64,000 bases of DNA from a virus (Duplodnaviria; Caudoviricetes), in the IMG/VR virus record IMGVR_UViG_3300008954_000001; one strand, given 5' to 3'. Positions within the stretch are counted from its first letter, which is position 1. Each line of letters starts with the position of its first letter. Positions 13,817 to 47,908 of the stretch are shown here, piece by piece. The notes under the pieces are model-generated. The model had not been told where the DNA came from, searched no databases, and saw nothing but the letters and a program-made list of their open reading frames with translations. A program made the translations under genes and the position numbers.

Positions 13817-14128
13817 ATGCGAAGGTCAGAACCCATGACCAGTTGGGTTAATTACGCCTTGTGGTCATGCAACAAACATCTCCCCGCTGCCAGAATCCCC
13901 GCTGATATCGAAAAGTGTTGGTACGGCTGTGGAGATGTTCGCCCATCAATGGAAGCTCGCCCAAAGGCCAAACAAGTTGAGGCTCCTACAAAACTGGTGG
14001 TCCCCAACTCTATGTTTTGTGCGTGGCATGAGTGCAATACTCCGACCCGTGAAGGCTCGAAGTATTGCTCCCGTAACTGCTCAAACAAAAACGCACGAGC
14101 AAGGCATAAGGCCCGTAAAGCCGCCTAA
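13817..14128 (+). CDS. Cys-rich zinc-finger protein
   Basis: CAWHEC...YCSRNCSNK; GGAG SD. Confidence 0.6.
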   Translation: MRRSEPMTSWVNYALWSCNKHLPAARIPADIEKCWYGCGDVRPSMEARPKAKQVEAPTKLVVPNSMFCAWHECNTPTREGSKYCSRNCSNKNARARHKARKAA

Positions 14129-17100: not shown

Positions 17101-20100
17101 CTGATCCTCATGTGTCGTCGGATTTCCAACGACAACGAAGCCCCCGGCTCGTCCGATTAGGTCACCTTCCGCACTGTGCGAGGAAAAAGTGCCTAAGCCC
17201 GAATCTTGAGCAGTGGTTACCGCAGTTTCGCTGGTCCCAGTCGAGACATCGAGTGTTGCCACTACCCCATCACCGAATAGCATGGTCCATTCGGTTGGGA
17301 GGCCGTCAGAACCGTCTGGTGGTCCGAATACTGGTATGTTGGGATCAAGAGTTCGTTCACTGGGGTCCAATCGCCCAATGGCTGACTCGAAGAGTTCTTC
17401 AACATGGACAGTTCGTTCAGCAGTAGCTGTCAGTCCTGTCGTATTGTCCGTCACGCTATAGTTGAGTGTGTACTCGCCTTTAGTCGAGGTTCCAGTTCCA
17501 CCATCTCCGGGAGCAATCCCGTCACCACCTGTGTACTTCTGGCTGGGGACCAGATCACCACTCAGCGCAGAGTAGTTACCACCCGTACTCGCTTCCCAAA
17601 CCGTCCCGTCACTTTCAATCAGACGGACACCAGGATCTGAGTATTCCGTTCCCCATGTGTGGAACATCGGGTTCTGGCCCACGACTTCAAGTCGTGGGGC
17701 GGGGTAATCTGCGGGATCAACTGTTGGGACAAAAGCCGTAATCGATCCGAGAACAACATTCGGATTCAAGGCCGCATTGTCGGTTCTTGTGAAAGCAGTG
17801 CCATTATCGTCGGAGAGGGCCATGCTCCAACCAGCGACATACCAACCACTGGACCAATTATGGCCGTAGTAACCATTCTCGTCGGGGGCTGAATCAAATG
17901 TGACCGTAGCGATATGTTGGTTTCCTTCGTCGATGTAGACGTAGGGATAACTGTTATCCCATTGAGCAAGGCGGTTGTCGTCCACTGGGTTATACACGAA
18001 GACCCATCCATCTGGGAGGTCTTCGCCAAGTTCCGCAAACACTATGCTTGGGTTGTAAGCCACATACAGCGAATTCCACCCATCTGAAGCGTAAGGCAGG
18101 TCAAGGTACACCTCGTAAGTATAGTCTTGGACAAGGTTTCCATTTGGTGTCGTGGTTCCTGGTTCGAGTTGAACAAGCGAGACGGTAACTGGTCCTGATG
18201 GAACAGCGATGTATCGTTGATTGAGCAGATACGCCCCCGTTGCCACAAACGAACTATCCAAATCCTCATTGTCGGTGGCATCATCCGCTAATTCAAAATA
18301 GTTAGCTTTGTAAATCCCCGCCTTAGTGAAGTCGGCTACGAGTTCCCACATTCCTCCGCCATTGGGGTCGGCCACCATGCGGTAAAGGTTTCGTGTTGTA
18401 GAGGCGACAACATTACCGTCGCCATCGTACATGGAGGCTCCTGAATCAACCCAACTGGGATCAGGGGACCAATAGTTCCCGTCCCAAGTACCGGCGATAG
18501 AATTGTTTTCACCGTTCAACTGAATCGCATCAGGAACAGCGGCGGCCTCGACGATGATGGTTCGGTCAATGTTGCTTACGTTTCCACTATCGTCTGTCCA
18601 TTCGTATGTGATGGTGTAGGAGCCAGCGGTGTTTTCATCGATGCTCCCACCATACGAGAGATTTGCGGGTGTCGCCGTCAGATCGCCGTCCCACACAGTC
18701 TTTTCGCCTTTTGGGGGGTCAAGTGCAACAAAGCCCTCTTCAATATATGAGTCACCTTCGGTGATAGTTACGATGCTGTCTCCTATAAGGTAGAGGATCG
18801 CAGCGGCAGTATCTTCTTCAAAGATCGTCTGTACTTCAGTTCCCGAAAGTTCACGGGCATAAAGTCGGATATCGTTCATATATCCCGTGAAGCCTTGAGC
18901 AGTCTCTTCCCCTTCTTGGGGAGGCATATTGAACACTCGTCCACCGAGAATTATTTGGGTTACTTGCTGATCCCCTTGGACAAGGGGCATACCGAGTAGG
19001 TGGTAAGCGTGTTCTGAATCAAAAACCCCATTGATGAAAAACTTGATCGTGTTTCCAGTGTGTACAAAGGCAACGTGGTGCCAAGCAAATCCTGTTGGGT
19101 CCACATCCTCGGTAACAAGGTTTGCGGTTGAGGAGGTTCCCCCAAAGTCTGGATCAAAGCTCTGGTGAGGGCCATGGCTGGCAGTCAATTTCCCAACATC
19201 AGGGCTATCTGAATCCGCAATTAGATAGTAGCCCATGGCATCATTGCCGCCCATGTCCTCCTCTACGTTCCGTTGGATGAAAATAGGATAATTCCAAGCC
19301 CCCGCCGAGTATATTGGTCGTACCCAAGCCGTTACGGTATGGGGGCCGTAGGACATAAGGTTGAGAGCGAATTCGTGGTCAACTTGGTCAGCGTACCAGC
19401 CATCCCCGCTCGCAAAGGGGGTTTGAATCACCCCTTCGCTGACTGGAATGGCGGGCCAGTAAGCCCAATCTCTTGGGCCAGCAAGAACAAGAACGTCTTC
19501 CCAAGCAACAGCACCGTCGTTACCCTCGACATTAGTGATACCGACATTAGCCGTTCCCGGTGTAGCGGCCTCCTCTACATTTGTCTTAATGGCCGCCAAA
19601 TCTTCTTGGGGGGCATATAACGAAAGCTGCTGAACGCCCTTTGCTCTGATTTCTGCAATTTCCTGATAAGTAAGAGGACGATCCCAGAACGAAACCTCTT
19701 GCATGGCCCCAACAAAATGGTTGGTCGCAACGCCTTGGCTAACACTTGCACCAATGGCGCAATCCGTTGGTGTTGATTGAGGGTTTCCGCCCGCAACTTC
19801 AAGGAGGGGGAGTGCTATCTCTCCAATATTAACCCCATCGACCCATAAGACGGCCATGGGCGTTGTGTCGTGGGAACTATATCGGGTAAAGGCAATGTGG
19901 TGCCACAGACCATCTCGAAGGTCGTGGTTTAGCCGTTCGCCCCCCATGGTCGCCTGAACCTCTCGGACCAGTAATTCTTGTCCTTGGTTTCCGTACCAAG
20001 TAGCACCAATGTATGCGCCGAAGTTATCAGACCACATCCCAAGGCCAAAGTTAGCCCATTCCATACAGCGGGCGATGGTGCCAAGGCCGCCATCAATAGG

Positions 20101-23100
20101 GATATTGATCCAAGCGGAGAATGTCATATCTCCCGTCAACCCATAGATGGCGGGATTTGTGATTTCCATCCAATCTGCGGTGCCATCAAACATTAGGGCA
20201 CTGCCGATCATGCCATCAACCATTTGCGGGTTGCCGTGCATGATCCCATTACCAGAAATCATCGTCTCAGAAATCTCGGTCCCGGTCGGCATACTCCAAT
20301 ATCCAACTTGGCCCATCCCAAACGGGGTCGTCCACGGGTCAGGCCATGTGTAGGTGCTGTCGTCCAGTAAATGCTTACCGTGGGTTGCTGAGTGTTGATA
20401 AATTTGTGCAATCACCTCATCTGGTAAAGCAATACCGCTCCAAATAGCCACCTCATCGATGGCGGCGTTTAGAGTATTTCCTTCCCCGTCTTTACCGATC
20501 CAGAGAGTGTTTAGCCCGCCAGCACCAATGCCAGCGGTGATGTGGTTCCCCGCACCATCCAGTGTTTGGTTGCTGGCGTAGCCACCATTGATGATGACCT
20601 TCATTTCTGACCCGTCGTACTTCAAAACAACGTGATTCCAACCACCATCATTCAGTGCAGCGTGGGCTGTTCCAATGGCGGTCGGAGGATTTGCGCCGTC
20701 GATGGTATTTACTATGGACCAAGAGCCGGGGCCGCCAGAGGCCACATCGTTTAAGATCATTGTGCCGAAATTATTTTCGTCGGCTGACCAATGAAGTAGG
20801 GGTTCAACGCCCCCGTGACCCATCTGAAGCCAAAGAGAGATTGTGTATGGCGTGTCTTGGTCAAAGTTTGCGGTTGTGAGAGCTTCCGAGATATCAATGA
20901 ACTGGCCGCTTCCAACCCCACTGTAAAGGTCACGGGCGTTTCCAGCGATACCGTAAGCAGTGCCTGAACCTTCAGGGGTCGGTGCGTACTGTCCAGAAAC
21001 ACCGTCAAAGAAGGGTGCCCAACCATTTAGTTGCCAATGAGCCGTCAAACCCTCCGTGATCCTGGGAGACAACGCATACACCTCATTTGAGGGGAGAGGG
21101 TGCCACGAAATATTGGTGCCGTGGATAATGAATTCTTTGTAGTTGTTCGCCTCCACATCCCAAGCGGATAGGTCTACTTCAACCTCCATTTGTTTCCAAC
21201 CGTCCCCCCTTTTGGAGTGATCCACCCAACCTTGGCTGTGCCGATCAAATTGTCCCGTCGTGTGTCCAACTATGTAGTTAGAGTTATCGATGTACCCTTC
21301 GGCTGTAATCGGAGTGACCAAGTACGTTAGGTCAAGCGTGGGGGTCTCTCCGTGAAGGATGATGTGTTCGCCTGGGATCTCAAGTGTGAAGTGAATCTTT
21401 CCATCGTAATGGTGCTCAACGCTTCCTTCAGCGATTGCTGAATAGTTTATGCCAGGGAGAGTAAGCCGAGGGAACGGGCCGCTTAGATCAGTGAGATATT
21501 GAGTTAAGGTCCAAGCAAAAGGGTCCATCGTAGGAGGGATGGTCAAAGTATCCAGTTCAGAAAGACTCCGATTACCAAGAGCACCCTTTGTATAAATAGC
21601 TTGGATCGCATCGTCTTGAAGGCCCACCTCAAAAAACGCTACATCATCGATCCGTCCGGGCCATGCTCCACCCCATTCCTGCGTACCGCCAAGACCGACT
21701 TTGTTTTTCCAAACACCGTTGTCGTTGAAGGCTCCCCCAGCGTCCCCCACAACTCCCTGAAGATTACTGGTGTCTCCACCACCAAACCACTCATCTGTAG
21801 GGTCGATCTTAGCCCCGCCGTGATCCCCAACCTCAGGTGAAGAGCCGTCTGGGTTCATTAAGTCTAATTTTACGCCATTCCGCCATAAGGCGATGTCATT
21901 GTCCATTCGTCGCATTACGATATGGACCAACTCTCCATCGGGGAAGAACCCCTCGGTGGGATCAACAAAGGATATTTCCCCCCCGGTTCCGTCACCACCG
22001 TTTGAACCGTCACCCAACATCACACATAGTTTATTGGGCCATTCAGGGTTGTCTGCCCTCTCAATGAAAAGAGCCGCATTCCGTCCAGGGACGGACCAGT
22101 CCCAAAGAAGTATGGAAGCCTGATCTAAGTTTCGACCAATGAAACCATCCCAAATAACCCAAAAGGATGCGGTGAAATCACCTTGTCCGATAAGAGGACG
22201 ATCCGTGACTTGGGTATGGAGCAAACGAGCACCGTCCCCTGAAGACTCTTGCGGAAGCTCCAAACTCCACCCTTGACCAATCAAAGGTTGGGCCGCACTT
22301 GCGGAAGTGTTCGCATTCGCCAACTCCCACTCAAAATGGCCGTCCAGAGGTTCAGGCCCACTATGAGTCCACAGTGCGGCATCATTAGTGAAGGAGAGGT
22401 AAGAAATAAGAGAACTGCCACCATCTTTCCAGTAGCCTTCTGGCGGTCCCAGAACAGTGTTCGCAACAAGGCTATTGATCCCACCAACCCCACTTCGACT
22501 TGCGACTGTGAATTGGAAGGGCATGTTTGAACCAGTCTCAATCGGGCTGTGTTCACTGGACATCGCAGCACTAATGGTGTCGTTATCCATTGTTGTTGAA
22601 GTGGGGGTAAAAGACCAACTGGCCGTTTGCGGCATTGAGGCAACACCGCCTGTCAGGTCAGCCCAATCGTAAGAACCAAATTCAATGTCTTCTTTAAGAA
22701 GAATCTCAACATCAAGATTGGTGTAGGGAACACTGTTGTTCATGAGAACACTAAAGGTTTCCATGACGAAAAGGGGGTCGCCAAGGTTGCCAATCGTATC
22801 GATACTGTCCCGTGTGATCCATAAATAATCGGGTTCGTAATCGGCAAACGGCCAGAACCTGATACCTGCGAAAGTGACGGGGAAATCAGCATCGTAGGGA
22901 TATGCGAGGCCAACGATGTTGGTGATGAACCCTGGTTTGGCATCCCCGAAATCGAAAGTCATTAATTTGTGAGTCCCTGCGGGAATCACTGTTATGTTGC
23001 CTGTGACATCGTGGACACCTACTTTGAGTTCCACGGAGGATTCTCGTGCGGACACAAACCGAGATGACGTATGGGCCGTAACGGTAACGTGACTGTTAAT

Positions 23101-23319
23101 AGAGGCGTTAGCCGTGTCACCCCAATCTTCGTGACGAATAACCTCGCTGTAGGTAGTACAATCCGCCGGAAAAAGAACTTCCGTTTCTTGGATTTCAAAA
23201 TTGAGGCAATACAGACCCGAATCTTCAGCGTGATAGTTCAAATCCCATAAACCATCTGGACGGCGTTCGAGCCAAATGTAATTAGTGTGGTCAGTTCCGA
23301 TGGTAACTACTGGTGGCAT
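14125..23319 (-). CDS. 3064-aa virion fibre/adhesin-like protein (LamG, DUF5011 Ig-like, BNR repeats)
   Basis: Several LamG-type repeats (T.S.W...WHH/WNH..IDEVAIW), two DUF5011-like Ig units (GSYTITYEWTD, GEYTLNYSVTD), Asp-box repeats (RSEDGGESW, KSLDMGGSW, RSENDGLSW); very acidic. Confidence 0.8.
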   Translation of the reverse strand: MPPVVTIGTDHTNYIWLERRPDGLWDLNYHAEDSGLYCLNFEIQETEVLFPADCTTYSEVIRHEDWGDTANASINSHVTVTAHTSSRFVSARESSVELKVGVHDVTGNITVIPAGTHKLMTFDFGDAKPGFITNIVGLAYPYDADFPVTFAGIRFWPFADYEPDYLWITRDSIDTIGNLGDPLFVMETFSVLMNNSVPYTNLDVEILLKEDIEFGSYDWADLTGGVASMPQTASWSFTPTSTTMDNDTISAAMSSEHSPIETGSNMPFQFTVASRSGVGGINSLVANTVLGPPEGYWKDGGSSLISYLSFTNDAALWTHSGPEPLDGHFEWELANANTSASAAQPLIGQGWSLELPQESSGDGARLLHTQVTDRPLIGQGDFTASFWVIWDGFIGRNLDQASILLWDWSVPGRNAALFIERADNPEWPNKLCVMLGDGSNGGDGTGGEISFVDPTEGFFPDGELVHIVMRRMDNDIALWRNGVKLDLMNPDGSSPEVGDHGGAKIDPTDEWFGGGDTSNLQGVVGDAGGAFNDNGVWKNKVGLGGTQEWGGAWPGRIDDVAFFEVGLQDDAIQAIYTKGALGNRSLSELDTLTIPPTMDPFAWTLTQYLTDLSGPFPRLTLPGINYSAIAEGSVEHHYDGKIHFTLEIPGEHIILHGETPTLDLTYLVTPITAEGYIDNSNYIVGHTTGQFDRHSQGWVDHSKRGDGWKQMEVEVDLSAWDVEANNYKEFIIHGTNISWHPLPSNEVYALSPRITEGLTAHWQLNGWAPFFDGVSGQYAPTPEGSGTAYGIAGNARDLYSGVGSGQFIDISEALTTANFDQDTPYTISLWLQMGHGGVEPLLHWSADENNFGTMILNDVASGGPGSWSIVNTIDGANPPTAIGTAHAALNDGGWNHVVLKYDGSEMKVIINGGYASNQTLDGAGNHITAGIGAGGLNTLWIGKDGEGNTLNAAIDEVAIWSGIALPDEVIAQIYQHSATHGKHLLDDSTYTWPDPWTTPFGMGQVGYWSMPTGTEISETMISGNGIMHGNPQMVDGMIGSALMFDGTADWMEITNPAIYGLTGDMTFSAWINIPIDGGLGTIARCMEWANFGLGMWSDNFGAYIGATWYGNQGQELLVREVQATMGGERLNHDLRDGLWHHIAFTRYSSHDTTPMAVLWVDGVNIGEIALPLLEVAGGNPQSTPTDCAIGASVSQGVATNHFVGAMQEVSFWDRPLTYQEIAEIRAKGVQQLSLYAPQEDLAAIKTNVEEAATPGTANVGITNVEGNDGAVAWEDVLVLAGPRDWAYWPAIPVSEGVIQTPFASGDGWYADQVDHEFALNLMSYGPHTVTAWVRPIYSAGAWNYPIFIQRNVEEDMGGNDAMGYYLIADSDSPDVGKLTASHGPHQSFDPDFGGTSSTANLVTEDVDPTGFAWHHVAFVHTGNTIKFFINGVFDSEHAYHLLGMPLVQGDQQVTQIILGGRVFNMPPQEGEETAQGFTGYMNDIRLYARELSGTEVQTIFEEDTAAAILYLIGDSIVTITEGDSYIEEGFVALDPPKGEKTVWDGDLTATPANLSYGGSIDENTAGSYTITYEWTDDSGNVSNIDRTIIVEAAAVPDAIQLNGENNSIAGTWDGNYWSPDPSWVDSGASMYDGDGNVVASTTRNLYRMVADPNGGGMWELVADFTKAGIYKANYFELADDATDNEDLDSSFVATGAYLLNQRYIAVPSGPVTVSLVQLEPGTTTPNGNLVQDYTYEVYLDLPYASDGWNSLYVAYNPSIVFAELGEDLPDGWVFVYNPVDDNRLAQWDNSYPYVYIDEGNQHIATVTFDSAPDENGYYGHNWSSGWYVAGWSMALSDDNGTAFTRTDNAALNPNVVLGSITAFVPTVDPADYPAPRLEVVGQNPMFHTWGTEYSDPGVRLIESDGTVWEASTGGNYSALSGDLVPSQKYTGGDGIAPGDGGTGTSTKGEYTLNYSVTDNTTGLTATAERTVHVEELFESAIGRLDPSERTLDPNIPVFGPPDGSDGLPTEWTMLFGDGVVATLDVSTGTSETAVTTAQDSGLGTFSSHSAEGDLIGRAGGFVVVGNPTTHEDQIAWAKVSDLSDGVSEAFQTESLTIDSQPASIAAMVSEPFHQTVLVVTQVGEGMYAAAFQNADIEALWGVSPDSAPQISILTAPNVGTFTSHGTMRPDNPNVDYANSPFAVLGIEGYGFTYEGAADSTPLADRVVGLRIISDGPTVDVDYDPFTGTLYEWSGKHVINHTASEQEGSGLVINPVAELRFANDGGDEIEVGYGFNPGSSLKVTSMGVQPYTGIYWFVCEDPTGSTESSYFFEYDTTEWWEHGSDLFVYSYAQIWEALGVPSVAWGYGELKELSKPYFDLVEYKIFMGHSRGLVVLGPWQEWFGSGHYGIELFDALGAPAQITEISGSYNFGEGQGVLMAVGHTTNGGILFRSEDGGESWERVVTNPDKLISIENVGANGYGVWVVGGENGVFGISFNDGYSFENLPAVEALSDAQCCGILYASSTDTHNFGQTIFQDSTGATWISSESGLPGSWGNQNQMPTVLGDQTGVGSLLNPSPLAFGYRTVSQDPLSPYWVAYADPSSGYGQVTDALMLYTTRDNDGPDERGAWYINALATEGDPDFGWHQTDTSMFLALPAYFQTDEIPGPLGDAVWVHSAGEEYELYDNKDTGFEGLFESHLGYHLAGMGPNLADPNQWVPSVTNMEPVLARVNYTPNPNAVELADMGDGTWGIYLRNVDDIWGFQFEIAAAEIDPSSTLSSPHFGSITVAGPDNSLVILTDFSGSYAPSGEGWLVQGLILNGTPTGLVNIFASDQEGNDLLAGYRDAAAPTTAMSSPNNVKWFGVGTGQQATTTRLLVRPEIESTDAQLGFPPITVFAQFSDGPPVGLPVAESVAWVNSGPPCFASDNYYLGEDHWYIPQVGGLAISPDTNGSTGLVAGLVGWTIEPFADSDDDPVTLYMAKYSPEWGILMVVGTSSSGKGCVFKSLDMGGSWTPSLEVPNTDLRVLDGDDSGKWVAAGSNHTLYRSENDGLSWKLDDTFDHAGTSGEIVAANFAAYPIAPDGDEA

Positions 23320-31339: not shown

Positions 31340-31437
31340 AAGTGTAAGCGAAAGGTCGTGGGTTCGAGTCCCATCCCGTCATAAGGCGGGTAGCTCAGTT
31401 ACCGCTGTGCGGAGGGAGAGCGTTCACTTACACTTGG
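31338..31437 (+). ncRNA. circularly permuted tRNA-like RNA (Y RNA/YrlA-like)
   Basis: Order is helix 5' strand, variable loop AGGTC, T arm GTGGG-TTCGAGT-CCCAT, acceptor hairpin CCCGTC-ATAA-GGCGGG, TA, D arm GCTC...GAGC, helix 3' strand; CCAAGTGTAAG 31338-31348 is the exact reverse complement of 31427-31437. Confidence 0.75.
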
Positions 31438-31512
31438 GCCACTTAGCTCATCAGAGAGAGCACCTGTTTTGCAATCAGGAGGTGACGGGTTTGAGTCCCG
31501 TAGGGTCCACCA
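31436..31512 (+). tRNA. trnA: tRNA-Ala(UGC), CCA-encoded
   Basis: GGGCC(A)CT/AGGGTCC acceptor with G3:U70, GCTC/GAGC D stem, CCTGT-TTTGCAA-TCAGG anticodon arm, ACGGG-TTTGAGT-CCCGT T arm, ACCA end. Confidence 0.85.
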
Positions 31513-39932: not shown

Positions 39933-40186
39933 TCTTGCTCCTCATGCCGAAACCAGACTCGGAACAGTTGAATGGCTTTCGTCTGCTTGCGCCCTTTGGG
40001 AATAGGGTCTACCAAGACAAGGGGGTTCCCTTTGGGGTCTTTGTCGAACCCAACAATCACACCAGCCTTGTTCTTGTATTTGCCGTACCACACCTGATCT
40101 CCCTCATTCAGCGTAAGCGTGAGGGCTTCTTTCTTCCGTGCGTACTTAGCAGCTACTCTGGCAGCCCAAGGGTTCTCTTTCATCAC
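39929..40186 (-). CDS. small SH3/KOW-like protein with RVAAKY tag
   Basis: WAARVAAKY then GDQVWYGKYK...GVIV. Confidence 0.6.
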   Translation of the reverse strand: MMKENPWAARVAAKYARKKEALTLTLNEGDQVWYGKYKNKAGVIVGFDKDPKGNPLVLVDPIPKGRKQTKAIQLFRVWFRHEEQE

Positions 40187-42678
40187 ACGCCCTCGTGTTC
40201 GAGGATGGACTTGATTTCTTCTTGGGTCAGCCCCTTATCGAATTTTGCGTGGGCATACTCAACGATCTTGCCGACAAACTGTTCATAAAGTTCGTCGCTC
40301 TTGCCCTCTTTAGCGAGGCGGATCATGTCCTTGTCTTCAAGGATGGTATCGATTTCGGTAGAAGCAATCGTAGATACGGCGTTGACCATCCATTCCACAG
40401 CACTTCCAATACCCCCAAGAGCACCCGTCCCGTAGTTCCCCACAGCTTCAGCCATCGACCCACCCGCAAGCGTAGCTACATCCTGAGCGCCTTCAGCGTG
40501 GAGAAGCATCTTATCCCCTACCGCCGTGTACGCACCGATGCCGATATGGAGCGTAAGGGAGTTCAGAAAGGCTTTACCACCCACGGCGGCAAAGCCACCC
40601 GCAGTTGAAATGCCTCCGGTGGCAATACCGACACCTGTCGCTACTGCTATACCTCCCGCATAGATAGCGGAGCCGTATAGAACATCCCTCTCGCTGGCCT
40701 CTCCTTCACTACATTCAGTTTTGGAGCCTTCCGCATCACACCCCTTGGGCCATTTCTTCTTCTCGCTTGAAGGCACCCGCCCCTCTTTGATGCAATCCAT
40801 CAGAATCGTGGGTGTGTTGATAGCAACATTCCGAACTTCTCGAACGGTCGAGCCAGCCAGCTTTTTAACGATGTTTACAGGATTTGCGTGTTCCAGAATC
40901 TTCTTAGCAAGGCTTTTTGATTTCTTCTCGTCTGTGATCTGCGAAACGGCTTCTTGACCTTCCTTGGTCTGAATAGCTTTCGCTGTGGAGGCTGGCAGCT
41001 TCGTACCCTCAGGCACCCCCGCCGCTGACAAATGGGCTTTAGAAGGTGCGCTACCACCCCCAGAACCACCCCCGCTTTGGCTCTTTACCTTATGGTCACG
41101 CTCTTTGGCATTCGGGTGATCTCGCAGATGTTTCTTCATCGCCTCTTCGGTGGCGTGTTCCATCGCATAGCGATGAGCGACCTTTTGAGCCGAAAGTTTG
41201 AGTAAATAGCGTTCGGTTACTCGGTCTTGGCTGGTCTTGATCCCAGCTTCGGCAAGCTCATCTTCCAGTTCGTCGAGGATATCTTGCAAGGAAGTGGCTC
41301 CTGTGGGGGAACTTGACCCAACCTTCCCCATAGCTTTGTTCATAAATAGTTCCGGGTCGAAAGACAATGTGGGCCTCCCTTGCAATACAGCCCTTTCAAG
41401 AGAATCCTCTACTGAAGCTGTTGATAGGAAACGTAAAATAATCTCAGGATTGATATACGACTTACGAGTAGTATTCGCAGAGTCGTGAGACAAAGCGGCT
41501 TGCGCCACATCAATAGCCCTATTCAAAGTCTCCACAATCGCTTCCACCACCCTCTGTTTCAGGTCGGTTTTCGCTCCTGTGGAAAAGGCTTTAATCCGAT
41601 CAAACAAGGCGGCTTGTTCGTCTCGAAGCGCATCTAAAACAGCTTCCGTAGCCCGTAACTTCCTAAAGTCTGTGGGGGAAACGTCTTTGAACCGCTCTCG
41701 AAAGTAGCGTTGAAGGTCAGAGTAGGTGACTCGTTGGCCCTTGCTGGTAACGAAGATGAACTTACCGCCCTTAGCCTTGTCGGTTTGGGCTTTCAGGATC
41801 TTGATGATTTCAGCGTCCGTAAGGGAAGCGAAGTTATGGCCCCCCTTCTTGCCCAAGAATTCCAGTTCGGCAAAGTTGTCTCGGATGAATCTAACGTGCG
41901 ATGGGCCAAGCGTAATGGCCCCAAACGTCTCGATCTCAACCTTTTCTCCGTTCACCGTCTTAATGGCGGCATTTCCCTCTTTACCGGGTCGGATGCCTGT
42001 CTCCATCATGATCGCAGTAATCAGGGCGGAGAGCTTGATGACCTCATCCCCTGACTTTAGATCCCGCTTCACCTGCTTGGCGATCTGGTTGTAATCCCGA
42101 ATCAGGTTGTGCATTTTGTCGATCTTCTTCCCAAGCGTCAGGTGTTCGTTCTCGAACCGATCTGTGATCCCTTGAACTTGCCCGTTCTCATCGACATCTA
42201 CGACGATGTTATCGGGCAAGAAATCTCGAAGCTCGGTGGGAAGCACTTCCCGCATAGGGCCTTGGGCTTCGGCCATTGTGATCGCTTGAAAGCCCTTAAA
42301 GGCTTGTTTGTGGACTTCTACCAGAGCATCCCGAATAGTTTTACCTTTTGTAAGAACATCACGGGCTTGGTAGAGGATGGCTGACCGCCATGAGTAGGCT
42401 TTGGGGTGGTCGGCTTCCTTGCCGATATAGGTGTCTAAGTATTCGAGAAAGATGGGGTTATTCTTCACCAACTTGACGAAAGCTCTGGCCCTGCGAGAGA
42501 TCGACCCCTTATCCCGACCAGGGTGCTCCACTTTTGCGGAATCCGCATAGGGCTGGAGGGTTTTCAGGAGTTTCTTGAACTCCACCCCCGCCTTGCGGAC
42601 ATGCTTCTCCTGATCTTTTTTGTCTCGTTTGTACTGCCGAGACTCGTTAGTCGGTACTCTTGCCATTCGCTCTCTCAC
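40183..42678 (-). CDS. topoisomerase IB catalytic-domain protein with N- and C-terminal extensions
   Basis: ETGIRPG, FGAITL, FLGKKG, DFRKLRA, LSH...RKSYINP keep the full R-K-R-H-Y set. Confidence 0.8.
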   Translation of the reverse strand: MRERMARVPTNESRQYKRDKKDQEKHVRKAGVEFKKLLKTLQPYADSAKVEHPGRDKGSISRRARAFVKLVKNNPIFLEYLDTYIGKEADHPKAYSWRSAILYQARDVLTKGKTIRDALVEVHKQAFKGFQAITMAEAQGPMREVLPTELRDFLPDNIVVDVDENGQVQGITDRFENEHLTLGKKIDKMHNLIRDYNQIAKQVKRDLKSGDEVIKLSALITAIMMETGIRPGKEGNAAIKTVNGEKVEIETFGAITLGPSHVRFIRDNFAELEFLGKKGGHNFASLTDAEIIKILKAQTDKAKGGKFIFVTSKGQRVTYSDLQRYFRERFKDVSPTDFRKLRATEAVLDALRDEQAALFDRIKAFSTGAKTDLKQRVVEAIVETLNRAIDVAQAALSHDSANTTRKSYINPEIILRFLSTASVEDSLERAVLQGRPTLSFDPELFMNKAMGKVGSSSPTGATSLQDILDELEDELAEAGIKTSQDRVTERYLLKLSAQKVAHRYAMEHATEEAMKKHLRDHPNAKERDHKVKSQSGGGSGGGSAPSKAHLSAAGVPEGTKLPASTAKAIQTKEGQEAVSQITDEKKSKSLAKKILEHANPVNIVKKLAGSTVREVRNVAINTPTILMDCIKEGRVPSSEKKKWPKGCDAEGSKTECSEGEASERDVLYGSAIYAGGIAVATGVGIATGGISTAGGFAAVGGKAFLNSLTLHIGIGAYTAVGDKMLLHAEGAQDVATLAGGSMAEAVGNYGTGALGGIGSAVEWMVNAVSTIASTEIDTILEDKDMIRLAKEGKSDELYEQFVGKIVEYAHAKFDKGLTQEEIKSILEHEGV

Positions 42679-43550: not shown

Positions 43551-43793
43551 CTACTTGAACACTCGGTCTTTAGCTGTCTCGAACAACTGTGGAAGAAAGC
43601 TCTTTTTGAGGCGTAGAAGTCTCTCGAACTTCACCTTCTTACGAGCATCCACATAGAGTTGTGTAGGCTTCTTAATCTCGCCCTCAATAAGCTGATCCGA
43701 GAAATCATAGAACTTGGTACGCTCAGGGGGCTTCGCATAAGCATTGGTGTGGAAAAAGCTCAGAGCCAAGACCATCAGTAAACCCCTAATCAT
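43551..43793 (-). CDS. cglF: CglF/GltF-like secreted protein (myxobacterial gliding-motility family)
   Basis: Signal peptide (...AYA) plus YDFSD...EGEIKKP...Y...RKK..F..L......F.P.L pattern, recalled as the CglF signature; GAGGAG SD. Confidence 0.6.
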   Translation of the reverse strand: MIRGLLMVLALSFFHTNAYAKPPERTKFYDFSDQLIEGEIKKPTQLYVDARKKVKFERLLRLKKSFLPQLFETAKDRVFK

Positions 43794-43962
43794 CGTCTGG
43801 CTCCTCTACCCAAGAGGAAAAGCTCAAACCAAGACCACAACATGCCATGCTGATTAGACCTAAAAGCATTAAGTCCGTATTCCCCATGGCGGTCGCTAAC
43901 CCAAACAGGGCTAAGTTCATGCCCAAAGCACCAACCACAAGATCCCTGAACAAGCGTCTCAT
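43786..43962 (-). CDS. 58-aa two-TM membrane protein (not in ORF track)
   Basis: Manual translation MRRLFRDLVVGALGMNLALFGLATAMGNTDLMLLGLISMACCGLGLSFSSWVEEPDDD; couples the flanking genes. Confidence 0.55.
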   Translation of the reverse strand: MRRLFRDLVVGALGMNLALFGLATAMGNTDLMLLGLISMACCGLGLSFSSWVEEPDDD

Positions 43963-43965
43963 GGC

Positions 43966-44301
43966 TCAACCCTCTTTGTTCATGGCTTCCATCAACTTGA
44001 TAGCCATGAGCCACTGAAGCATCTTTTGAAGGTCCATTTCAGGGGACTCTTCAGTAGGCGTAGCGGCTTGGGTTCTAAGAGAGCACCAATCTTGGGTGGA
44101 CATTTGCGGGCCGTAAGCACCGCTTGAAAAATCGGCGGCCCCCATTTCGGCGGCCTTCGTGTCCCCACCCGAAGATGACGACCCCGTGTTTACAGCAGGG
44201 GTAGCTTCCGCACCCCCAACAGCGGCGGCTCCTGAACCAGCACTAACTGATCCGCCAGCGTTAGCTGCGCCTCCCGCTCCTCCAACTCCTCCAACATTCA
44301 T
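43966..44301 (-). CDS. Gly/Ala-rich low-complexity protein with helical C-terminus
   Basis: GAGAAGG SD; operon position. Confidence 0.55.
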   Translation of the reverse strand: MNVGGVGGAGGAANAGGSVSAGSGAAAVGGAEATPAVNTGSSSSGGDTKAAEMGAADFSSGAYGPQMSTQDWCSLRTQAATPTEESPEMDLQKMLQWLMAIKLMEAMNKEG

Positions 44302-44310
44302 AACCTTCTC

Positions 44311-44505
44311 TCACTTTGGTTTGTTCCATGGCTTTTTGCCCCAAGCGATGAGAAGTGCTTTACAAAGAGTCAAAACGATTCGATTGTGGTTGTGGAAGAT
44401 ATTCAACTGCTGTCTACCCGACAGCGACAACCATTCTCTTACTTGTTCTTCCGAAAGAGTTTCTGGGTCCCAGTTTGGTTCTTCAGATTTCTTTCGATAG
44501 GACAC
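44311..44505 (-). CDS. hypothetical protein (probable GTG start 44505)
   Basis: GAGGT SD before GTG; overlaps end of the vWA gene. Confidence 0.4.
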   Translation of the reverse strand: MSYRKKSEEPNWDPETLSEEQVREWLSLSGRQQLNIFHNHNRIVLTLCKALLIAWGKKPWNKPK

Positions 44506-46763
44506 GACCTCACCTTTGGAAAACCCACATCGTTGGGATGAATACATTGTTGTGTAGGTAGGTGCAGCCACATTTCTTGTGTTTGGTGTGTACCGCACTG
44601 CGTTGGTTTATGTTTCAGTTTTGAGAGAGATTGAAACTGAAACACTCCAAAAGCAGCGGGAGAGAACCGCATAGTTCTATGAATAGGTAACAATAGGGGA
44701 TCAATCGAATAACTGTCCCATAACCAAGCCCCTTGCTGGGCATCTTCGCCACCACAAGCGGTTTCTTCAAGGATATCCATAAGGTTGTCGAACATCACTT
44801 GTGGGTTCGCAGTAAGCTGAAACCAAGACCCGCCAACGGAAACAGGCTCCCACCCAAGAGGGCCAATTTGCCCCCCACCACCCGATTTGCTGAAAGTGTA
44901 GATGGATAAATCATCCGCAGCGGCGGCCCACTCTTGGATAAGGGGTTGTGTTGTCATGGGGTTAAGAAAACTTTGGCCGTGTTCATCAGAGAAGATAATT
45001 ACGACGTGGTGAACATCCTCTCGCCAATTGATATGCCAGTTATCAATGCTGGGATCAGACCCCACTCCGAAGCCCCCCCAATTCAGTGGGGGTAGTGCGG
45101 GCACATCTCCAGGCTCAACCAGATTTCTAATGCTCAAAAGCAAAGCATCGTAAAGCATCTCGCTGCTCGTGGGTTCATCATCTACCGTCGCCAAATGCCC
45201 CAAGAACTGATTGAAGGGAACGAGATTGGTAGCCAAATGAAGAGTGTCATCGAAGTTTTGATCGATTGGCCCAACCACCAAACCCCATTGGACAACTTCT
45301 TGATCCGCATAATGGGTTGAAAACATACCCATCGCTTGCTGAACAGCATTGATTGTAGAGGACATGGAGCCAGAGGTGTCCACGATGAAGAGGACATCGG
45401 TGTCTTCTAAGACATTTTCAATGACTCCATCACAGTTGTCATCCTGACCTGTGCATAAGTCTTCTTCCAGCGGCGTAACTTCTCCCAGACACATGTCTTC
45501 AACGAAAAACTCGTCTACAAAGTTGCCCCACTGACCACTTACGCACAACATATCCCCAGGAGCGCAAACCCCAACATTCACGGTTCCTTCTGGCCCTGTG
45601 TAGCATTGGGCCATCAAATCCTCATCGATCAGTTCGTCGCAATCGTCATCAAAGTTGTTGCAAATCTCCTCCACAGGAGTCCCGCCTGTTGGGTCACACA
45701 CTTCGTTTGGTTCGGGCAACCAATGGCACATAGCAAAACATTGTGTCATTTGAGTTGTTACACAGTTTTCATCGGCGCACTCGCAGGACTTGAACCCTTG
45801 TCCACAAAGGAGCGGGTCTTCCATGCACGGGATCAAGAACCCGATCATTTCGGGCGGGCAAGCACAATCCAGCCCATCATCGATCAGCCCATTACAGTCG
45901 TCATCTAATCCGTTGCACTCTTCGGGCATCGGGGGCTGTGCGGTGCATCCTGTCCAAGCTCCCTCAATGCAAAATTCAACCCCTTGCTCACAGTCGGTTT
46001 CACACCCTTGAAGCAACTCTTCGTCTGTCAATGCGTCACAGTCGTTATCGAGGCCGTCACAAACCTCTGGGACGGGTAGAGGGGCATCGCAAAGGACTAA
46101 CTCGCCTTCGATGCAAAGAGCGTTTCCTGGCCCACACTCGGACTCACAGGGGTACTCCCCTTCGTCCACGACTCCATCGCAATCGTTATCTATCGCATCA
46201 CAGATTTCGACCTCACACGGAACACAAGGGCCAGCCATGATCTGCCCCTTCTCGCAGGTGAAGTCTTGAAGTCCTGTATATTCCTCCCCGTTCTCATCTA
46301 TGTCCGTGCAAGGGACATCTTCATTGACGATGATATCTGGGTTGGTGGGATCACACTCAAGCCAATTTTCACACTCTCCCATACTGACCACTTGCCATTG
46401 GCAGTCGGGGTCGTTGGCGAAAGCGGGGGTACAAGGCTCTCCGTTGGCATCGCAGACATCTAAAACCAAGGCTTGCATATAGAGGGCGGGATCGTCTCCG
46501 GGAGGGTGGCCGTCAGGGGTGCAAAAGAACATTTGGGTTTTCCAGCACTGCTGCTGGTATTCATATTCTTCCCCACAATGACAAGGTACGCCGCAGCATC
46601 CCGAATCCGCTTCCTCATCGGGGGTATCCGCATCTATGAAGGGAATGTCGGCATCTGAAGGGGTGGATATTCCCCGTTCAGGCACATCGGCTTCGTTCCC
46701 GCTTCTGTTTTCCGTACACCCGAAAACGGCCAATACCGCCAACAACCACAATGTTTTCTTCAC
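44439..46763 (-). CDS. lipoprotein with five Cys/Asp (MopE-type) repeats and a vWA domain
   Basis: Lipobox AVFG-C; EICDAIDNDCDG-type repeats x5; DVLFIVDTSGSMS MIDAS; VIIFSDE. Confidence 0.8.
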   Translation of the reverse strand: MKKTLWLLAVLAVFGCTENRSGNEADVPERGISTPSDADIPFIDADTPDEEADSGCCGVPCHCGEEYEYQQQCWKTQMFFCTPDGHPPGDDPALYMQALVLDVCDANGEPCTPAFANDPDCQWQVVSMGECENWLECDPTNPDIIVNEDVPCTDIDENGEEYTGLQDFTCEKGQIMAGPCVPCEVEICDAIDNDCDGVVDEGEYPCESECGPGNALCIEGELVLCDAPLPVPEVCDGLDNDCDALTDEELLQGCETDCEQGVEFCIEGAWTGCTAQPPMPEECNGLDDDCNGLIDDGLDCACPPEMIGFLIPCMEDPLLCGQGFKSCECADENCVTTQMTQCFAMCHWLPEPNEVCDPTGGTPVEEICNNFDDDCDELIDEDLMAQCYTGPEGTVNVGVCAPGDMLCVSGQWGNFVDEFFVEDMCLGEVTPLEEDLCTGQDDNCDGVIENVLEDTDVLFIVDTSGSMSSTINAVQQAMGMFSTHYADQEVVQWGLVVGPIDQNFDDTLHLATNLVPFNQFLGHLATVDDEPTSSEMLYDALLLSIRNLVEPGDVPALPPLNWGGFGVGSDPSIDNWHINWREDVHHVVIIFSDEHGQSFLNPMTTQPLIQEWAAAADDLSIYTFSKSGGGGQIGPLGWEPVSVGGSWFQLTANPQVMFDNLMDILEETACGGEDAQQGAWLWDSYSIDPLLLPIHRTMRFSPAAFGVFQFQSLSKLKHKPTQCGTHQTQEMWLHLPTQQCIHPNDVGFPKVRSCPIERNLKNQTGTQKLFRKNK

Positions 46764-46766
46764 AGC

Positions 46767-47078
46767 TTACCCCTTCTTCTTTGCTCCCTTACCCGAAGAT
46801 TTTTTCTGAAAGCCCGACACAAAAACTTGATGTAGCAACACCCCAAAGGTCTGGATGGTCTTGTGCTCCATCTCGGCTTCCGCAAAGTGATTGAGGGCTT
46901 CAATCACCTCATGCCAAAAAGTTTCCCAAGCAAGGGAATCGGAGAGGCTTTTGTCCAAGTAGATCGACATCTTGTCCAGATCCCACATTCCGTAGGCTTC
47001 GGAATGTTCTACAAGGTCTTGTTTCATAACGACCTTTATTTCATGGCCGCCAATTTGAATTTTGCTTGGGATTTCCAT
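46767..47078 (-). CDS. zincin-like (ImmA/IrrE-related) small protein, degenerate HExxH
   Basis: YG.W......IYLD......WETFWHEVIEA. Confidence 0.55.
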   Translation of the reverse strand: MEIPSKIQIGGHEIKVVMKQDLVEHSEAYGMWDLDKMSIYLDKSLSDSLAWETFWHEVIEALNHFAEAEMEHKTIQTFGVLLHQVFVSGFQKKSSGKGAKKKG

Positions 47079-47080
47079 CT

Positions 47081-47908
47081 CTAATCTGCCTCTTTCTCCT
47101 TTGTAGGAGGACTTTTCATGGCCTTATCTTTGACAGATTCCATGACTGTCCGAATTCCTGCATAGGGGGGAGAAAAAGCGATATTCTCAAATCCGACCAG
47201 AGTGCCACTGGTGACTCCCACTAATTCACCGTTCTCATTAACGATGGGGGAACCAGAGCTACCGCTTTTTGTTGGGATTGTGTAAACGTCGTATGGGATC
47301 GGCACACCGCCCAAATCTGGGTTTGGTGGGGGGTATTCCGAAGTCGTTCCAGCACTCAAACCTTCCAGTATGGGCAGAAGGTCGGAGCCGAAGGTTCCTA
47401 AAGGAGCGGCCATGGCAAAGACTCTTTCGCCTCGCTTAGTGGGCCGTGGTGCCATTTCAAGGATGGCGGGAGGTCGCATACCTCTGATCTTTAGTACGCA
47501 AAGATCCAAACTCGGATAAATGTCTTCAACAGCCGCTTCGTAAGCGACACCGCCAAGAATCATTACTCGAACATAGGAACTGGTTTCGGGTTCAAAGAGT
47601 TCCCCATCAGGCCCTTGTAAGATAACTTTGTTCGGGGCACAGACATGGCCCGCCGTGATCCCCCATGAATCAAAACCATTTGTGGCGGCTATAAAACCAG
47701 AGCCAGAGAAGGAAGCCCGCCCAAGCTCCATGCACTGATCTCCCACACACGTAGAGAATACGACTCTCTTGATTACAAAGAGAAAGCTGTTGTGGGCGAA
47801 CTGAGAGGGGTTCATCCGAGCGGTGCGAGCACAGGATGTGGTTAAAATAAGCAGTAGCATGGTGCTGATTATTACAATTTGCCGTTTCATTCTTCCCTCA
47901 CAGGGCAA
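47081..47908 (-). CDS. trypsin-like (S1) serine protease, probable lipoprotein
   Basis: TAGHVC, DLC, GSSGSP catalytic triad; LLLILTTS-C lipobox. Confidence 0.85.
   Translation of the reverse strand: MPCEGRMKRQIVIISTMLLLILTTSCARTARMNPSQFAHNSFLFVIKRVVFSTCVGDQCMELGRASFSGSGFIAATNGFDSWGITAGHVCAPNKVILQGPDGELFEPETSSYVRVMILGGVAYEAAVEDIYPSLDLCVLKIRGMRPPAILEMAPRPTKRGERVFAMAAPLGTFGSDLLPILEGLSAGTTSEYPPPNPDLGGVPIPYDVYTIPTKSGSSGSPIVNENGELVGVTSGTLVGFENIAFSPPYAGIRTVMESVKDKAMKSPPTKEKEAD

What the first reader, a model, noticed from the sequence alone, without database searches (positions are those of the whole stretch)
43551..47908. Phage-borne myxobacterial-type envelope cassette: CglF/GltF-like protein, vWA-repeat lipoprotein and lipoprotein serine protease
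Seen: one minus-strand run encodes a signal-peptide protein with the DF.D...GE..KP...Y...RK...F..L pattern, a lipoprotein with five EICDxxDNDCDG repeats and a MIDAS vWA domain, a trypsin-like lipoprotein protease, a 2-TM protein and a Gly-rich protein. Established (from recall): CglF/GltF and the vWA lipoprotein CglB are envelope parts of the Myxococcus gliding machinery, and such Cys/Asp repeats are typical of Myxococcota surface proteins. Inference: the host is Myxococcota/Bdellovibrionota-like, and the phage may alter gliding or adhesion of the infected cell, spread within swarms, or mask receptors for superinfection exclusion.
Basis: partly seen in the sequence, partly recalled or inferred. 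Interest (0 to 1): 0.7.

Follow-up and report, generated by a model that had tools for sequence, protein, structure and literature searches.

The report
Phage copy of gliding-motor protein GltF
A roughly 323-kb uncultured marine phage carries a full-length, well-conserved copy of GltF, a small connector protein of the myxobacterial gliding motor. Next to it lie two exported phage proteins, an integrin-like adhesin and a protease, so the phage probably tampers with its host's motility and surface, and its host is probably a member of the Myxococcota.

Summary

- **GltF.** The 80-aa secreted protein is a true GltF/CglF homologue. It is 45-77% identical to GltF genes that sit in gltC-D-E-F clusters of Myxococcota MAGs. 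It scores higher on NCBI's CglF model than those bacterial proteins do. A complex model places its C-terminal helix in the GltC groove (score 0.87, best control 0.00).
- **Spread.** At least 101 IMG/VR viral contigs carry such a gene under purifying selection, in many different gene contexts. It is a stand-alone accessory gene, not host contamination.
- **vWA lipoprotein.** The 774-aa protein is not a CglB homologue. It belongs to a very large family seen here only in phage contexts (459 IMG/VR contigs). The family has a lipobox, about 45 invariant cysteines, five MopE repeats and an integrin-beta-like vWA domain with a DxSxS MIDAS motif.
- **Protease.** The protease is a lipoprotein HtrA-type enzyme without a PDZ domain.
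- **Linkage.** The "cassette" is a lineage-specific juxtaposition, although GltF lies within 2.4 kb of the vWA gene more often than chance would give (15 of 80 loci).

I found no paper on phage-borne GltF. First readers of this scan flagged similar genes in two other phage genomes.

The parts
43551..43793 (-). Phage gltF/cglF homologue. 80 aa: a Sec signal peptide, then a mature peptide of about 60 aa with the KFYDF..G...KP strand segment and the LLRLKKSF...VFK C-terminal helix.
   Evidence: NF033764 gliding_CglF at E 4.6e-11, 42.6 bits. 45-77% identical to GltF in bacterial gltC-D-E-F clusters. Complex model with GltC: ipSAE 0.87 against 0.00 for the best control.
43786..43962 (-). 58-aa protein with two transmembrane helices. 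Its stop overlaps the gltF start by 8 nt. Function unknown.
   Evidence: 53% identical to the 62-aa gene at the same position in L004. Found in only 4 loci.
43966..44301 (-). 111-aa protein with a Gly/Ala/Ser-rich, probably disordered N-terminus and a conserved C-terminal half. No signal peptide.
   Evidence: 67% identical to L004 over residues 41-111. The family is present in 11 loci, often just upstream of gltF. No Pfam or PHROG hit.
44311..44598 (-). ORF that holds a small conserved gene of about 45-55 aa. The conserved part is roughly 44326-44457. Its 5' part overlaps the tail of the 774-aa ORF.
   Evidence: blastp: residues 48-91 match the 55-aa gene L004:8980-9147 at 52% identity, E 1e-15. 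Family in 11 loci.
44439..46763 (-). 774-aa exported lipoprotein. It has a Cys-rich beta-rich N-terminal region, five MopE-type CxxxDNDCDGxxDE repeats, an integrin-beta-like vWA domain (residues about 455-670) with a DxSxS MIDAS motif, and a poorly modelled C-terminal tail.
   Evidence: Alignment A2: invariant C16, about 45 invariant Cys, D462/S464/S466/D593. Pfam MopE in 31 of 31 members and VWA in 22 of 31. AF2 mean pLDDT 77, mostly above 90 across the vWA domain. Foldseek top hits are integrin beta I-domains and the LapA vWFA domain.
46767..47078 (-). 103-aa protein of unknown function (phrog_1233), lying between the protease and vWA genes.
   Evidence: phrog_1233 at E 1.9e-11. 55% identical to the gene at the same position in L004.
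47081..47908 (-). Lipoprotein HtrA-type (S1C) serine protease domain without a PDZ domain. The likely start is the MKRQ... methionine, about 18 nt inside the ORF.
   Evidence: Trypsin_2 at E 3.3e-15. HtrA2, HtrA1 and MarP are the best solved relatives. Conserved GH.C, D.C.L and GSSGSP motifs and a conserved lipobox Cys.

Best explanation
The 80-aa gene encodes a full-length, functional-looking copy of GltF, the small periplasmic connector of the myxobacterial Agl-Glt gliding machine. A lineage of large marine phages acquired it long ago from Myxococcota-type bacteria and kept it as a stand-alone accessory gene.

In an infected cell it would be exported by Sec. It would then bind the host's GltC TPR groove with its C-terminal helix. 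By analogy with the published Glt model, its KFYDF strand would bind the TonB-like domain of GltG. The phage would thereby take control of the link between the outer-membrane adhesion platform and the inner-membrane motor. Either it keeps the machine running after host gene expression stops, or an excess of connector uncouples it.

The neighbouring genes are separate, conserved exported phage proteins that probably remodel the surface of the infected cell. One is a disulfide-rich lipoprotein with an integrin-beta-like vWA/MIDAS adhesion domain. The other is a lipoprotein HtrA-type protease. Their position next to gltF is a feature of this sub-lineage, not of the family.

What is shown: homology, conservation, export signals, folds and distribution. 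What is predicted: GltC binding. What is inferred: the effect on motility, the timing, and the host.
For: **Homology**
- NF033764 hits at E 4.6e-11, 42.6 bits. Bona fide cluster-encoded GltFs of marine Myxococcota score only 35.7-35.8 bits on the same model.
- 109 relatives were found across one genome for each of 185,579 bacterial and archaeal species. Nearly all of the 80 listed are Myxococcota.
- 66 of those 80 bacterial loci have GltC, D, E or G next door. None of the 80 viral loci does.

**Functional conservation**
- The protein is the same length as the bacterial ones.
- Phage and bacterial copies have the same invariant columns and no fixed differences.
- dN/dS is about 0.17 where dS could be computed. 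dS is saturated against the nearest phage and bacterial copies.

**Binding**
- A complex model with a marine Myxococcota GltC (NF033756, E 2e-57) gives ipSAE 0.87. The best of 3 controls gives 0.00. In the tool's calibration, 58 of 80 solved complexes and 2 of 110 mismatched pairs reached the mark.
- The three runs agree in at least 76% of their contacts, and the partner's pLDDT is at least 59.
- The interface covers GltF residues 62-80 and 28-38, against GltC 219-404. This GltC stretch includes invariant residues R333, Y347, E364 and W367.
- The same helix-in-groove arrangement was proposed for M. xanthus GltF-GltC (PMC11761067).

**Phage residence**
- 101 IMG/VR contigs encode a relative.
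- The upstream neighbours differ from phage to phage.
- GC content of the phage loci is 32-58%, against 48-72% for the bacterial loci.
- Phage exonuclease and helicase genes flank the region.

**Neighbours**: see the parts list.
Against: - No experiment exists. The direction of the effect, sustaining or blocking gliding, cannot be read from sequence.
- The GltC used in the model is a stand-in from a MAG, not the unknown host. The phage protein is 77% identical to that MAG's own GltF, so the pass largely shows likeness.
- The 42.6-bit score lies below NCBI's equivalog cut-off of 90.
- Phage loci have much lower GC than most Myxococcota (median 41% against 64%), which leaves the host assignment open.
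- The GltF tree has only 58 columns. It does not resolve one origin from several (11 label changes).
- Binding to GltG was not modelled.
Confidence: 0.6

Rival explanations
1. The genes form one functional phage module. The vWA lipoprotein would be a phage-made surface adhesin that docks on or works with the host Glt platform. Phage GltF would couple it to the motor, and the protease would process or release it. The infected cell's adhesion or gliding would then be re-aimed for the phage's benefit.
For: - gltF lies within 2.4 kb of the vWA gene, on the same strand, in 15 of 80 viral loci fetched through GltF. It does so in at least five different arrangements and in both gene orders. I estimate about 2 of 80 would be expected by chance for genomes of about 190 kb.
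- All 5 large GltF-bearing contigs tested also carry the vWA gene.
- The protease is directly adjacent to the vWA gene in the window's sub-lineage (5 loci at 250-600 bp).
- Bacterial glt clusters also begin with a vWA protein and end with gltF (L007).
Against: - 59 of 80 GltF loci have no vWA gene within 10 kb, and only 10 of 78 vWA loci have gltF nearby.
- Two phages rated 100% complete by CheckV carry the vWA gene but no gltF, so the vWA protein works without it.
- There is no sequence relation to the vWA lipoproteins linked to bacterial glt clusters.
- Related phages are not independent samples.
Confidence: 0.2
2. The phage GltF acts as a jammer for superinfection exclusion or receptor masking. 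Made in excess, the connector would saturate GltC and GltG separately. That would freeze or disassemble the Glt complex, so that a Glt-linked surface receptor is hidden or the infected cell stops moving.
For: - Phages of other bacteria are known to block surface motility machines to exclude rivals (my own knowledge: Pseudomonas phage proteins that inhibit type IV pili).
- GltF is a bridging subunit (PMC11761067), so an excess could uncouple its partners.
- The gene is a stand-alone accessory gene in variable contexts, which is typical of exclusion genes.
Against: - Neither binding segment shows any loss. There are no phage-specific fixed substitutions. A pure decoy would be expected to keep only one interface.
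- No evidence shows that Glt proteins are a phage receptor.
Confidence: 0.15
3. The segment is host DNA: contamination, a chimeric assembly, or a very recent capture with no role in the phage.
For: The protein is up to 77% identical to Myxococcota GltF over the mature part.
Against: - GC content is the same as the rest of the window.
- The layout is syntenic with independent phage contigs from other samples (L004, L001).
- 101 viral contigs carry relatives.
- Synonymous sites are saturated against bacterial copies.
- No other glt gene lies nearby.
- The stretch is held at 82-100% of sampled words in three runs of one marine study.
Confidence: 0.02

Closest known systems
GltF / CglF of Myxococcus xanthus (MXAN_4868, 89 aa; NCBIfam NF033764)
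   Same: - A small Sec-exported protein of the same length, alignable over the whole mature part.
- The same two conserved segments.
- A predicted C-terminal helix in the GltC groove, as in the published Glt model (PMC11761067).
- The family is restricted to Myxococcales and Bdellovibrionales (PMC3169522).
   Different: - Encoded by a phage, alone, outside any gltD-E-F-G cluster.
- Closer to GltF of uncultured aquatic Myxococcota than to Myxococcus, so it scores below the equivalog cut-off.
- Its role in gliding is untested.
CglD, the beta-integrin-like vWA lipoprotein of M. xanthus (bioRxiv 10.1101/2023.10.19.562135)
   Same: - A surface-type lipoprotein.
- Many disulfides in small repeated Cys-rich modules.
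- Asp-rich DxDxDG-like motifs.
- A C-terminal vWA domain with MIDAS, whose best structural matches are integrin beta I-domains.
   Different: - 774 aa against 1130 aa.
- The repeats are MopE-type (PF11617), not the COMP/TSP3 type reported for CglD.
- No sequence homology was shown here, because I had no CglD sequence to hand.
- Every context of the family examined here was a phage contig.
CglB, the vWA adhesin of the Glt machine (PMC9946355)
   Same: A Cys-rich outer-membrane lipoprotein with a vWA/MIDAS domain.
   Different: - No detectable sequence relation to the vWA lipoproteins that head bacterial glt clusters (hhalign probabilities 2.5% and 0.3%).
- About twice the size.
- It has MopE repeats.
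- Its vWA domain is integrin-beta-like rather than the alpha-I-like type reported for CglB.
Phage accessory genes that copy or target host machines (my own knowledge: cyanophage psbA; Pseudomonas phage inhibitors of type IV pili; the T5 Llp lipoprotein)
   Same: A host-interaction gene carried by a lytic-type phage genome and acting on a host envelope or energy machine during infection.
   Different: Here the phage carries a homologue of a structural subunit of a gliding motor. I found no report of this in the papers searched.
HtrA/DegP/MarP family serine proteases (S1C)
   Same: A trypsin-fold domain with a His-Asp-Ser triad. HtrA2, HtrA1 and MarP are the best solved relatives.
   Different: It has no PDZ domain, it is lipid-anchored, and it is phage-encoded.

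Membership tests
GltF/CglF | Small (about 80-90 aa) protein with a cleavable type I signal peptide | tested here: met
   80 aa with the cleavage site AYA|K. The alignment of 40 relatives shows an N-terminal hydrophobic leader in all of them. MXAN_4868 is 89 aa with a signal peptide (PMC3169522).
GltF/CglF | Significant sequence match to the family over the mature region | tested here: met
   NF033764 at E 4.6e-11, covering model positions 34-85 of 88. 45-77% identity to GltF genes inside glt clusters.
GltF/CglF | Score above NCBI's equivalog cut-off (90 bits) | tested here: not met
   42.6 bits. However, cluster-encoded GltFs of marine Myxococcota also fail, at 35.7 and 35.8 bits. The cut-off therefore reflects distance from Myxococcus, not non-membership.
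GltF/CglF | Encoded in a gltD-gltE-gltF(-gltG) cluster | tested here: not met
   0 of 80 viral loci have GltC, D, E or G within 10 kb, against 66 of 80 bacterial loci. This is expected for a phage copy.
GltF/CglF | C-terminal helix binds the GltC TPR groove | tested here: met
   In silico only. ipSAE 0.87, best of 3 controls 0.00. 58 of 80 solved complexes and 2 of 110 mismatched pairs reach the mark. Runs agree in at least 76% of contacts, and partner pLDDT is at least 59. The GltC is a stand-in from MAG locus L014.
GltF/CglF | Required for gliding and localises to focal adhesions | not testable with these tools
   Needs genetics and microscopy.
CglB | Outer-membrane lipoprotein with a vWA/MIDAS domain | tested here: met
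   Invariant lipobox Cys16 and D462-x-S464-x-S466. The vWA fold is modelled at pLDDT mostly above 90 and matches solved vWA domains.
CglB | Sequence homology to CglB-type vWA lipoproteins of glt clusters | tested here: not met
   hhalign of the family profile against the vWA proteins that head the glt clusters in L007 and L014 gives probabilities of 2.5% and 0.3%. No NCBIfam hit. The vWA part is absent from 5 Myxococcota MAGs.
CglD (beta-integrin-like lipoprotein) | Integrin-beta-type vWA domain plus Cys-rich repeat modules and Asp-rich Ca-type motifs on a lipoprotein | tested here: inconclusive
   The architecture is analogous: Foldseek top hits are integrin beta chains and there are five MopE repeats. 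No CglD sequence was available for a direct comparison. Atlas leads point to Myxococcota 'integrin beta chain VWA' clusters, but at 0.84 and TM 0.66 only.
HtrA/DegP (S1C) proteases | Trypsin fold with a His-Asp-Ser triad | tested here: met
   Trypsin_2 at E 3.3e-15. The triad motifs are conserved in 9 relatives.
HtrA/DegP (S1C) proteases | One or more C-terminal PDZ domains | tested here: not met
   The protein is 275 aa, Pfam finds no PDZ domain, and matches to solved structures cover the protease domain only.

The most novel reading that the evidence does not exclude
A large clade of uncultured marine phages (about 180-320 kb) infects gliding Myxococcota and takes over their focal-adhesion machinery with its own parts. 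The parts would be a phage-made integrin-like adhesin lipoprotein, a protease that processes it, and, in a subset of phages, a phage GltF that plugs the assembly into the host motor. An infected cell would then adhere or move in a way that serves phage spread. This would be the first viral take-over of a bacterial gliding and adhesion apparatus.
Probability: 0.15. Interest if true: 0.85.

Novelty: new variant of a known kind. Interest (0 to 1): 0.6.

Why it matters
- **GltF as a lever.** GltF is essential for gliding in Myxococcus and is proposed to be the bridge between the outer-membrane adhesion platform and the motor. A phage version kept under selection in more than 100 viral contigs implies that controlling this bridge pays off during infection. 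It also offers a natural tool for probing how the Glt complex is coupled.
- **Host clue.** It gives a concrete, testable host prediction (Myxococcota) for a widespread group of large marine phages that have no cultured host.
- **A large uncharacterised family.** The integrin-like lipoprotein family has more than 3000 protein clusters in the search and 459 viral contigs. It is among the most widely shared exported proteins of these phages, and nothing is known about it.

Tried and rejected
- megablast of 10 kb against the phage collection found no match.
- No whole genome is held for the window.
- The PHROG and Pfam libraries gave nothing for the 80-aa, 58-aa and 111-aa proteins.
- I looked for a universal partner gene next to phage gltF. 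None exists: neighbours vary and no small 2-TM partner recurs.
- The GltF tree is too short (58 columns) to settle one capture against several. Phage and bacterial labels are clustered but not monophyletic.
- GTDB names for the closest MAGs are not told for handles reached through loci. That call shows only that all 8 genomes of that order carry 1-3 GltF matches each.
- Sequencing runs: no RNA holder is listed. Only marine DNA runs hold the stretch, three of them from one study at 82-100% of words. I did not lay reads.
- Paper searches for phage GltF or CglF, and for jumbo phages of Myxococcota, found nothing relevant.
- I considered a lysis cassette (2-TM holin-like protein plus small secreted protein). 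I rejected it because the 2-TM gene is found in only 4 loci and gltF is clearly a Glt component.
- I considered the 774-aa protein as a virion protein. I rejected it because of the invariant lipobox and the roughly 45 invariant cysteines, which need periplasmic oxidation.
Full report
**What is there.**
- an 80-aa secreted protein;
- a 58-aa protein with two transmembrane helices;
- a 111-aa protein with a Gly-rich N-terminus;
- a 774-aa Cys-rich lipoprotein;
- a 103-aa protein;
- a 275-aa trypsin-like lipoprotein.

Upstream lies a phage-type exonuclease (phrog_704, E 6e-55). The window also holds phage helicases and has an even GC content of about 51%. The 80-aa protein is recorded on a contig of 323,540 bases. 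Earlier notes of this scan describe the genome as a roughly 323-kb marine phage.

**The 80-aa protein is GltF.**
- NCBIfam's gliding_CglF model hits it at E 4.6e-11, 42.6 bits.
- That is below the curated cut-off of 90 bits. However, two GltF proteins encoded inside unmistakable glt clusters of marine Myxococcota score only 35.7 and 35.8 bits. The cut-off measures distance from Myxococcus, not membership.
- A scan of one genome for each of 185,579 bacterial and archaeal species found 109 relatives. The 80 listed are nearly all Myxococcota MAGs, 45-77% identical over the mature part.
- In 66 of those 80 loci my profile searches found GltC, GltD, GltE or GltG next door. In the 80 viral loci there were none.
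- Two cases checked in detail, L007/L008 and L009, show the order barrel, GltC, GltD, GltE, GltF.
- The literature describes GltF (MXAN_4868, 89 aa) as an essential gliding gene found only in Myxococcales and Bdellovibrionales (PMC3169522). It is also described as a bridge whose C-terminal helix sits in a GltC groove and whose beta-strand pairs with the TonB-like domain of GltG (PMC11761067).

**It is a resident phage gene, not contamination.**
- Homologues occur in 101 IMG/VR viral contigs and in phage-like metagenome contigs of up to 168 kb.
- Phage loci have 32-58% GC, against 48-72% for the bacterial loci.
- Synonymous sites are saturated between the window's copy and the nearest phage and bacterial copies. 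dN/dS is about 0.17 where it could be computed.
- Phage and bacterial copies share the same invariant columns and show no fixed differences. Both proposed binding segments are therefore maintained.
- Upstream neighbours differ widely among phages, as expected for a stand-alone accessory gene.
- A 58-column tree shows phage and bacterial sequences clustered (11 label changes against about 52 when shuffled). It does not show clean monophyly, so the number of transfers is open.

**Predicted binding.** I folded the mature phage protein with the GltC homologue of the MAG that has the closest GltF (L014; GltC identity confirmed by NF033756 at E 2e-57).
- The score was 0.87, and the best of three controls scored 0.00. 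In the tool's calibration, 58 of 80 solved complexes and 2 of 110 mismatched pairs reach the mark.
- The runs agree in at least 76% of contacts, and the partner's pLDDT is at least 59.
- The interface uses GltF residues 62-80 (the C-terminal helix) and 28-38. On the GltC side it uses residues 219-404, including columns that are invariant across 35 GltC sequences. This matches the published M. xanthus model.
- This supports binding but does not show it. The phage protein is 77% identical to that MAG's own GltF, so the result mainly says that the phage copy has kept the interface.

**The 774-aa protein.** It belongs to a very large family. The search returned 3044 proteins at E <= 0.001 among the 8000 candidates scored, and 459 IMG/VR contigs encode a relative.
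- Every context I looked at is a phage contig.
- The family has an invariant lipobox cysteine, about 45 invariant cysteines, MopE-type repeats (five in the window's protein) and an invariant D-x-S-x-S motif. Pfam finds MopE in 31 of 31 members and VWA in 22 of 31.
- The AlphaFold model has mean pLDDT 77, mostly above 90 across residues 455-670. Its best matches among solved structures are integrin beta I-domains, the LapA vWFA domain and other adhesive vWA domains.
- It is not a CglB relative. Profile comparison with the vWA proteins that head the bacterial glt clusters gives probabilities of 2.5% and 0.3%.
- Five Myxococcota MAGs contain 28-95 matches each, but every listed match lies in the MopE-repeat region and none in the vWA part.
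- In architecture it resembles CglD, the beta-integrin-like lipoprotein, more than CglB. I could not test homology to CglD.
- An exported, lipid-anchored, disulfide-rich protein cannot be a virion part assembled in the cytoplasm. I read it as a surface or periplasmic protein of the infected cell.

**The protease.** It is an HtrA-type domain without PDZ. Its His, Asp and Ser motifs and its lipobox cysteine are conserved in nine relatives.

**Is it a cassette?** Only loosely.

| Test | Result |
|---|---|
| Viral loci fetched through GltF with the vWA gene within 10 kb | 21 of 80 |
| Loci fetched through the vWA gene with gltF within 10 kb | 10 of 78 |
| Large GltF-bearing contigs that also carry the vWA gene (about 25-100 kb away, from the coordinates) | 5 of 5 |
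| Large vWA-bearing contigs that also carry gltF (two of the four without it are rated complete) | 1 of 5 |
| GltF loci with the vWA gene within 2.4 kb on the same strand, in at least five arrangements and both orders | 15 of 80 |
| vWA loci with the protease within 10 kb (directly adjacent only in the window's sub-lineage) | 20 of 78 |

- The vWA protein is therefore close to universal in this phage group, while gltF is an add-on.
- For the 2.4-kb proximity I estimate about 2 of 80 by chance in genomes of about 190 kb. Some functional tie, or a shared "host-surface" gene neighbourhood, is likely.
- No bacterial GltF locus has a relative of the protease.

**Mechanism and its limits.** The best-supported reading is that the phage supplies a working GltF that binds host GltC and so controls the coupling of the gliding machine.
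- Sequence alone cannot say whether this sustains gliding after host shut-off or uncouples the machine through an excess of connector.
- The unchanged conservation pattern argues against a one-sided decoy.
- Myxococcota are the likely gene donors and, by inference, the hosts. This is consistent with the abundance of MopE repeats in those genomes. The large GC gap leaves room for doubt.

**Novelty.** I found no paper on a phage-borne GltF/CglF. First readers of this scan flagged similar genes in two other phage genomes, without follow-up shown. Phages that carry host-machine parts, or that block motility organelles, are known in kind. A phage copy of a structural subunit of a gliding motor is a new variant, and so is a phage-wide integrin-like lipoprotein family.

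Noticed in passing
L014:9923-11194 (bacterial MAG contig CANMLD010000003.1): In the Myxococcota MAG with the closest GltF, gltF is followed by a 197-aa protein with N- and C-terminal transmembrane helices, and then by a second, diverged GltF paralogue. An earlier first-reader note, e1-1411751, describes the same layout. All 8 genomes of that GTDB order have 1-3 GltF matches each.
   Followed up: partly
window 40183-42678 (-): A second large protein (831 aa) with a eukaryotic-type topoisomerase IB core (Pfam PF01028, E 2.9e-14) and a Gly-rich hydrophobic C-terminal region. It lies directly downstream of the 1042-aa topoisomerase-headed protein that another report covers.
   Followed up: no
window 14125-23319 (-): A giant 3064-aa ORF with no PHROG match at E <= 0.001.
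   Followed up: no
window 46767-47078 (-): A 103-aa protein (phrog_1233, unknown function) conserved between the protease and vWA genes, here and in L004. It contains a WHEVIEALNH stretch that is not a canonical HExxH motif.
   Followed up: no
window 44439-44700 (-), C-terminal tail of the 774-aa protein: The last 100 or so residues after the vWA domain are modelled poorly (pLDDT below 50). A motif (MWLHLPTQQCIHP) is nevertheless shared with the closest relatives (P0070, P0075, P0077), so the tail is real. Most family members lack it. It overlaps the start of the small downstream gene.
   Followed up: partly
L008:15053-15603: A bacterial contig with a complete gltC-D-E-F run also carries flagellar rod genes (Flg_bb_rod, FliE) about 10 kb away. 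This is unexpected for classical, non-flagellated Myxococcota.
   Followed up: no
L004:12174-13187 and 16208-17500: In the closest syntenic phage contig, gltF is followed on the other strand by an Amidase_2/PG_binding endolysin-like gene, a patatin-like gene and an AcrVA2-like gene. None of these lies at the corresponding place in the window.
   Followed up: no
window 31436-31512 (+): A single tRNA-Ala (anticodon TGC).
   Followed up: no
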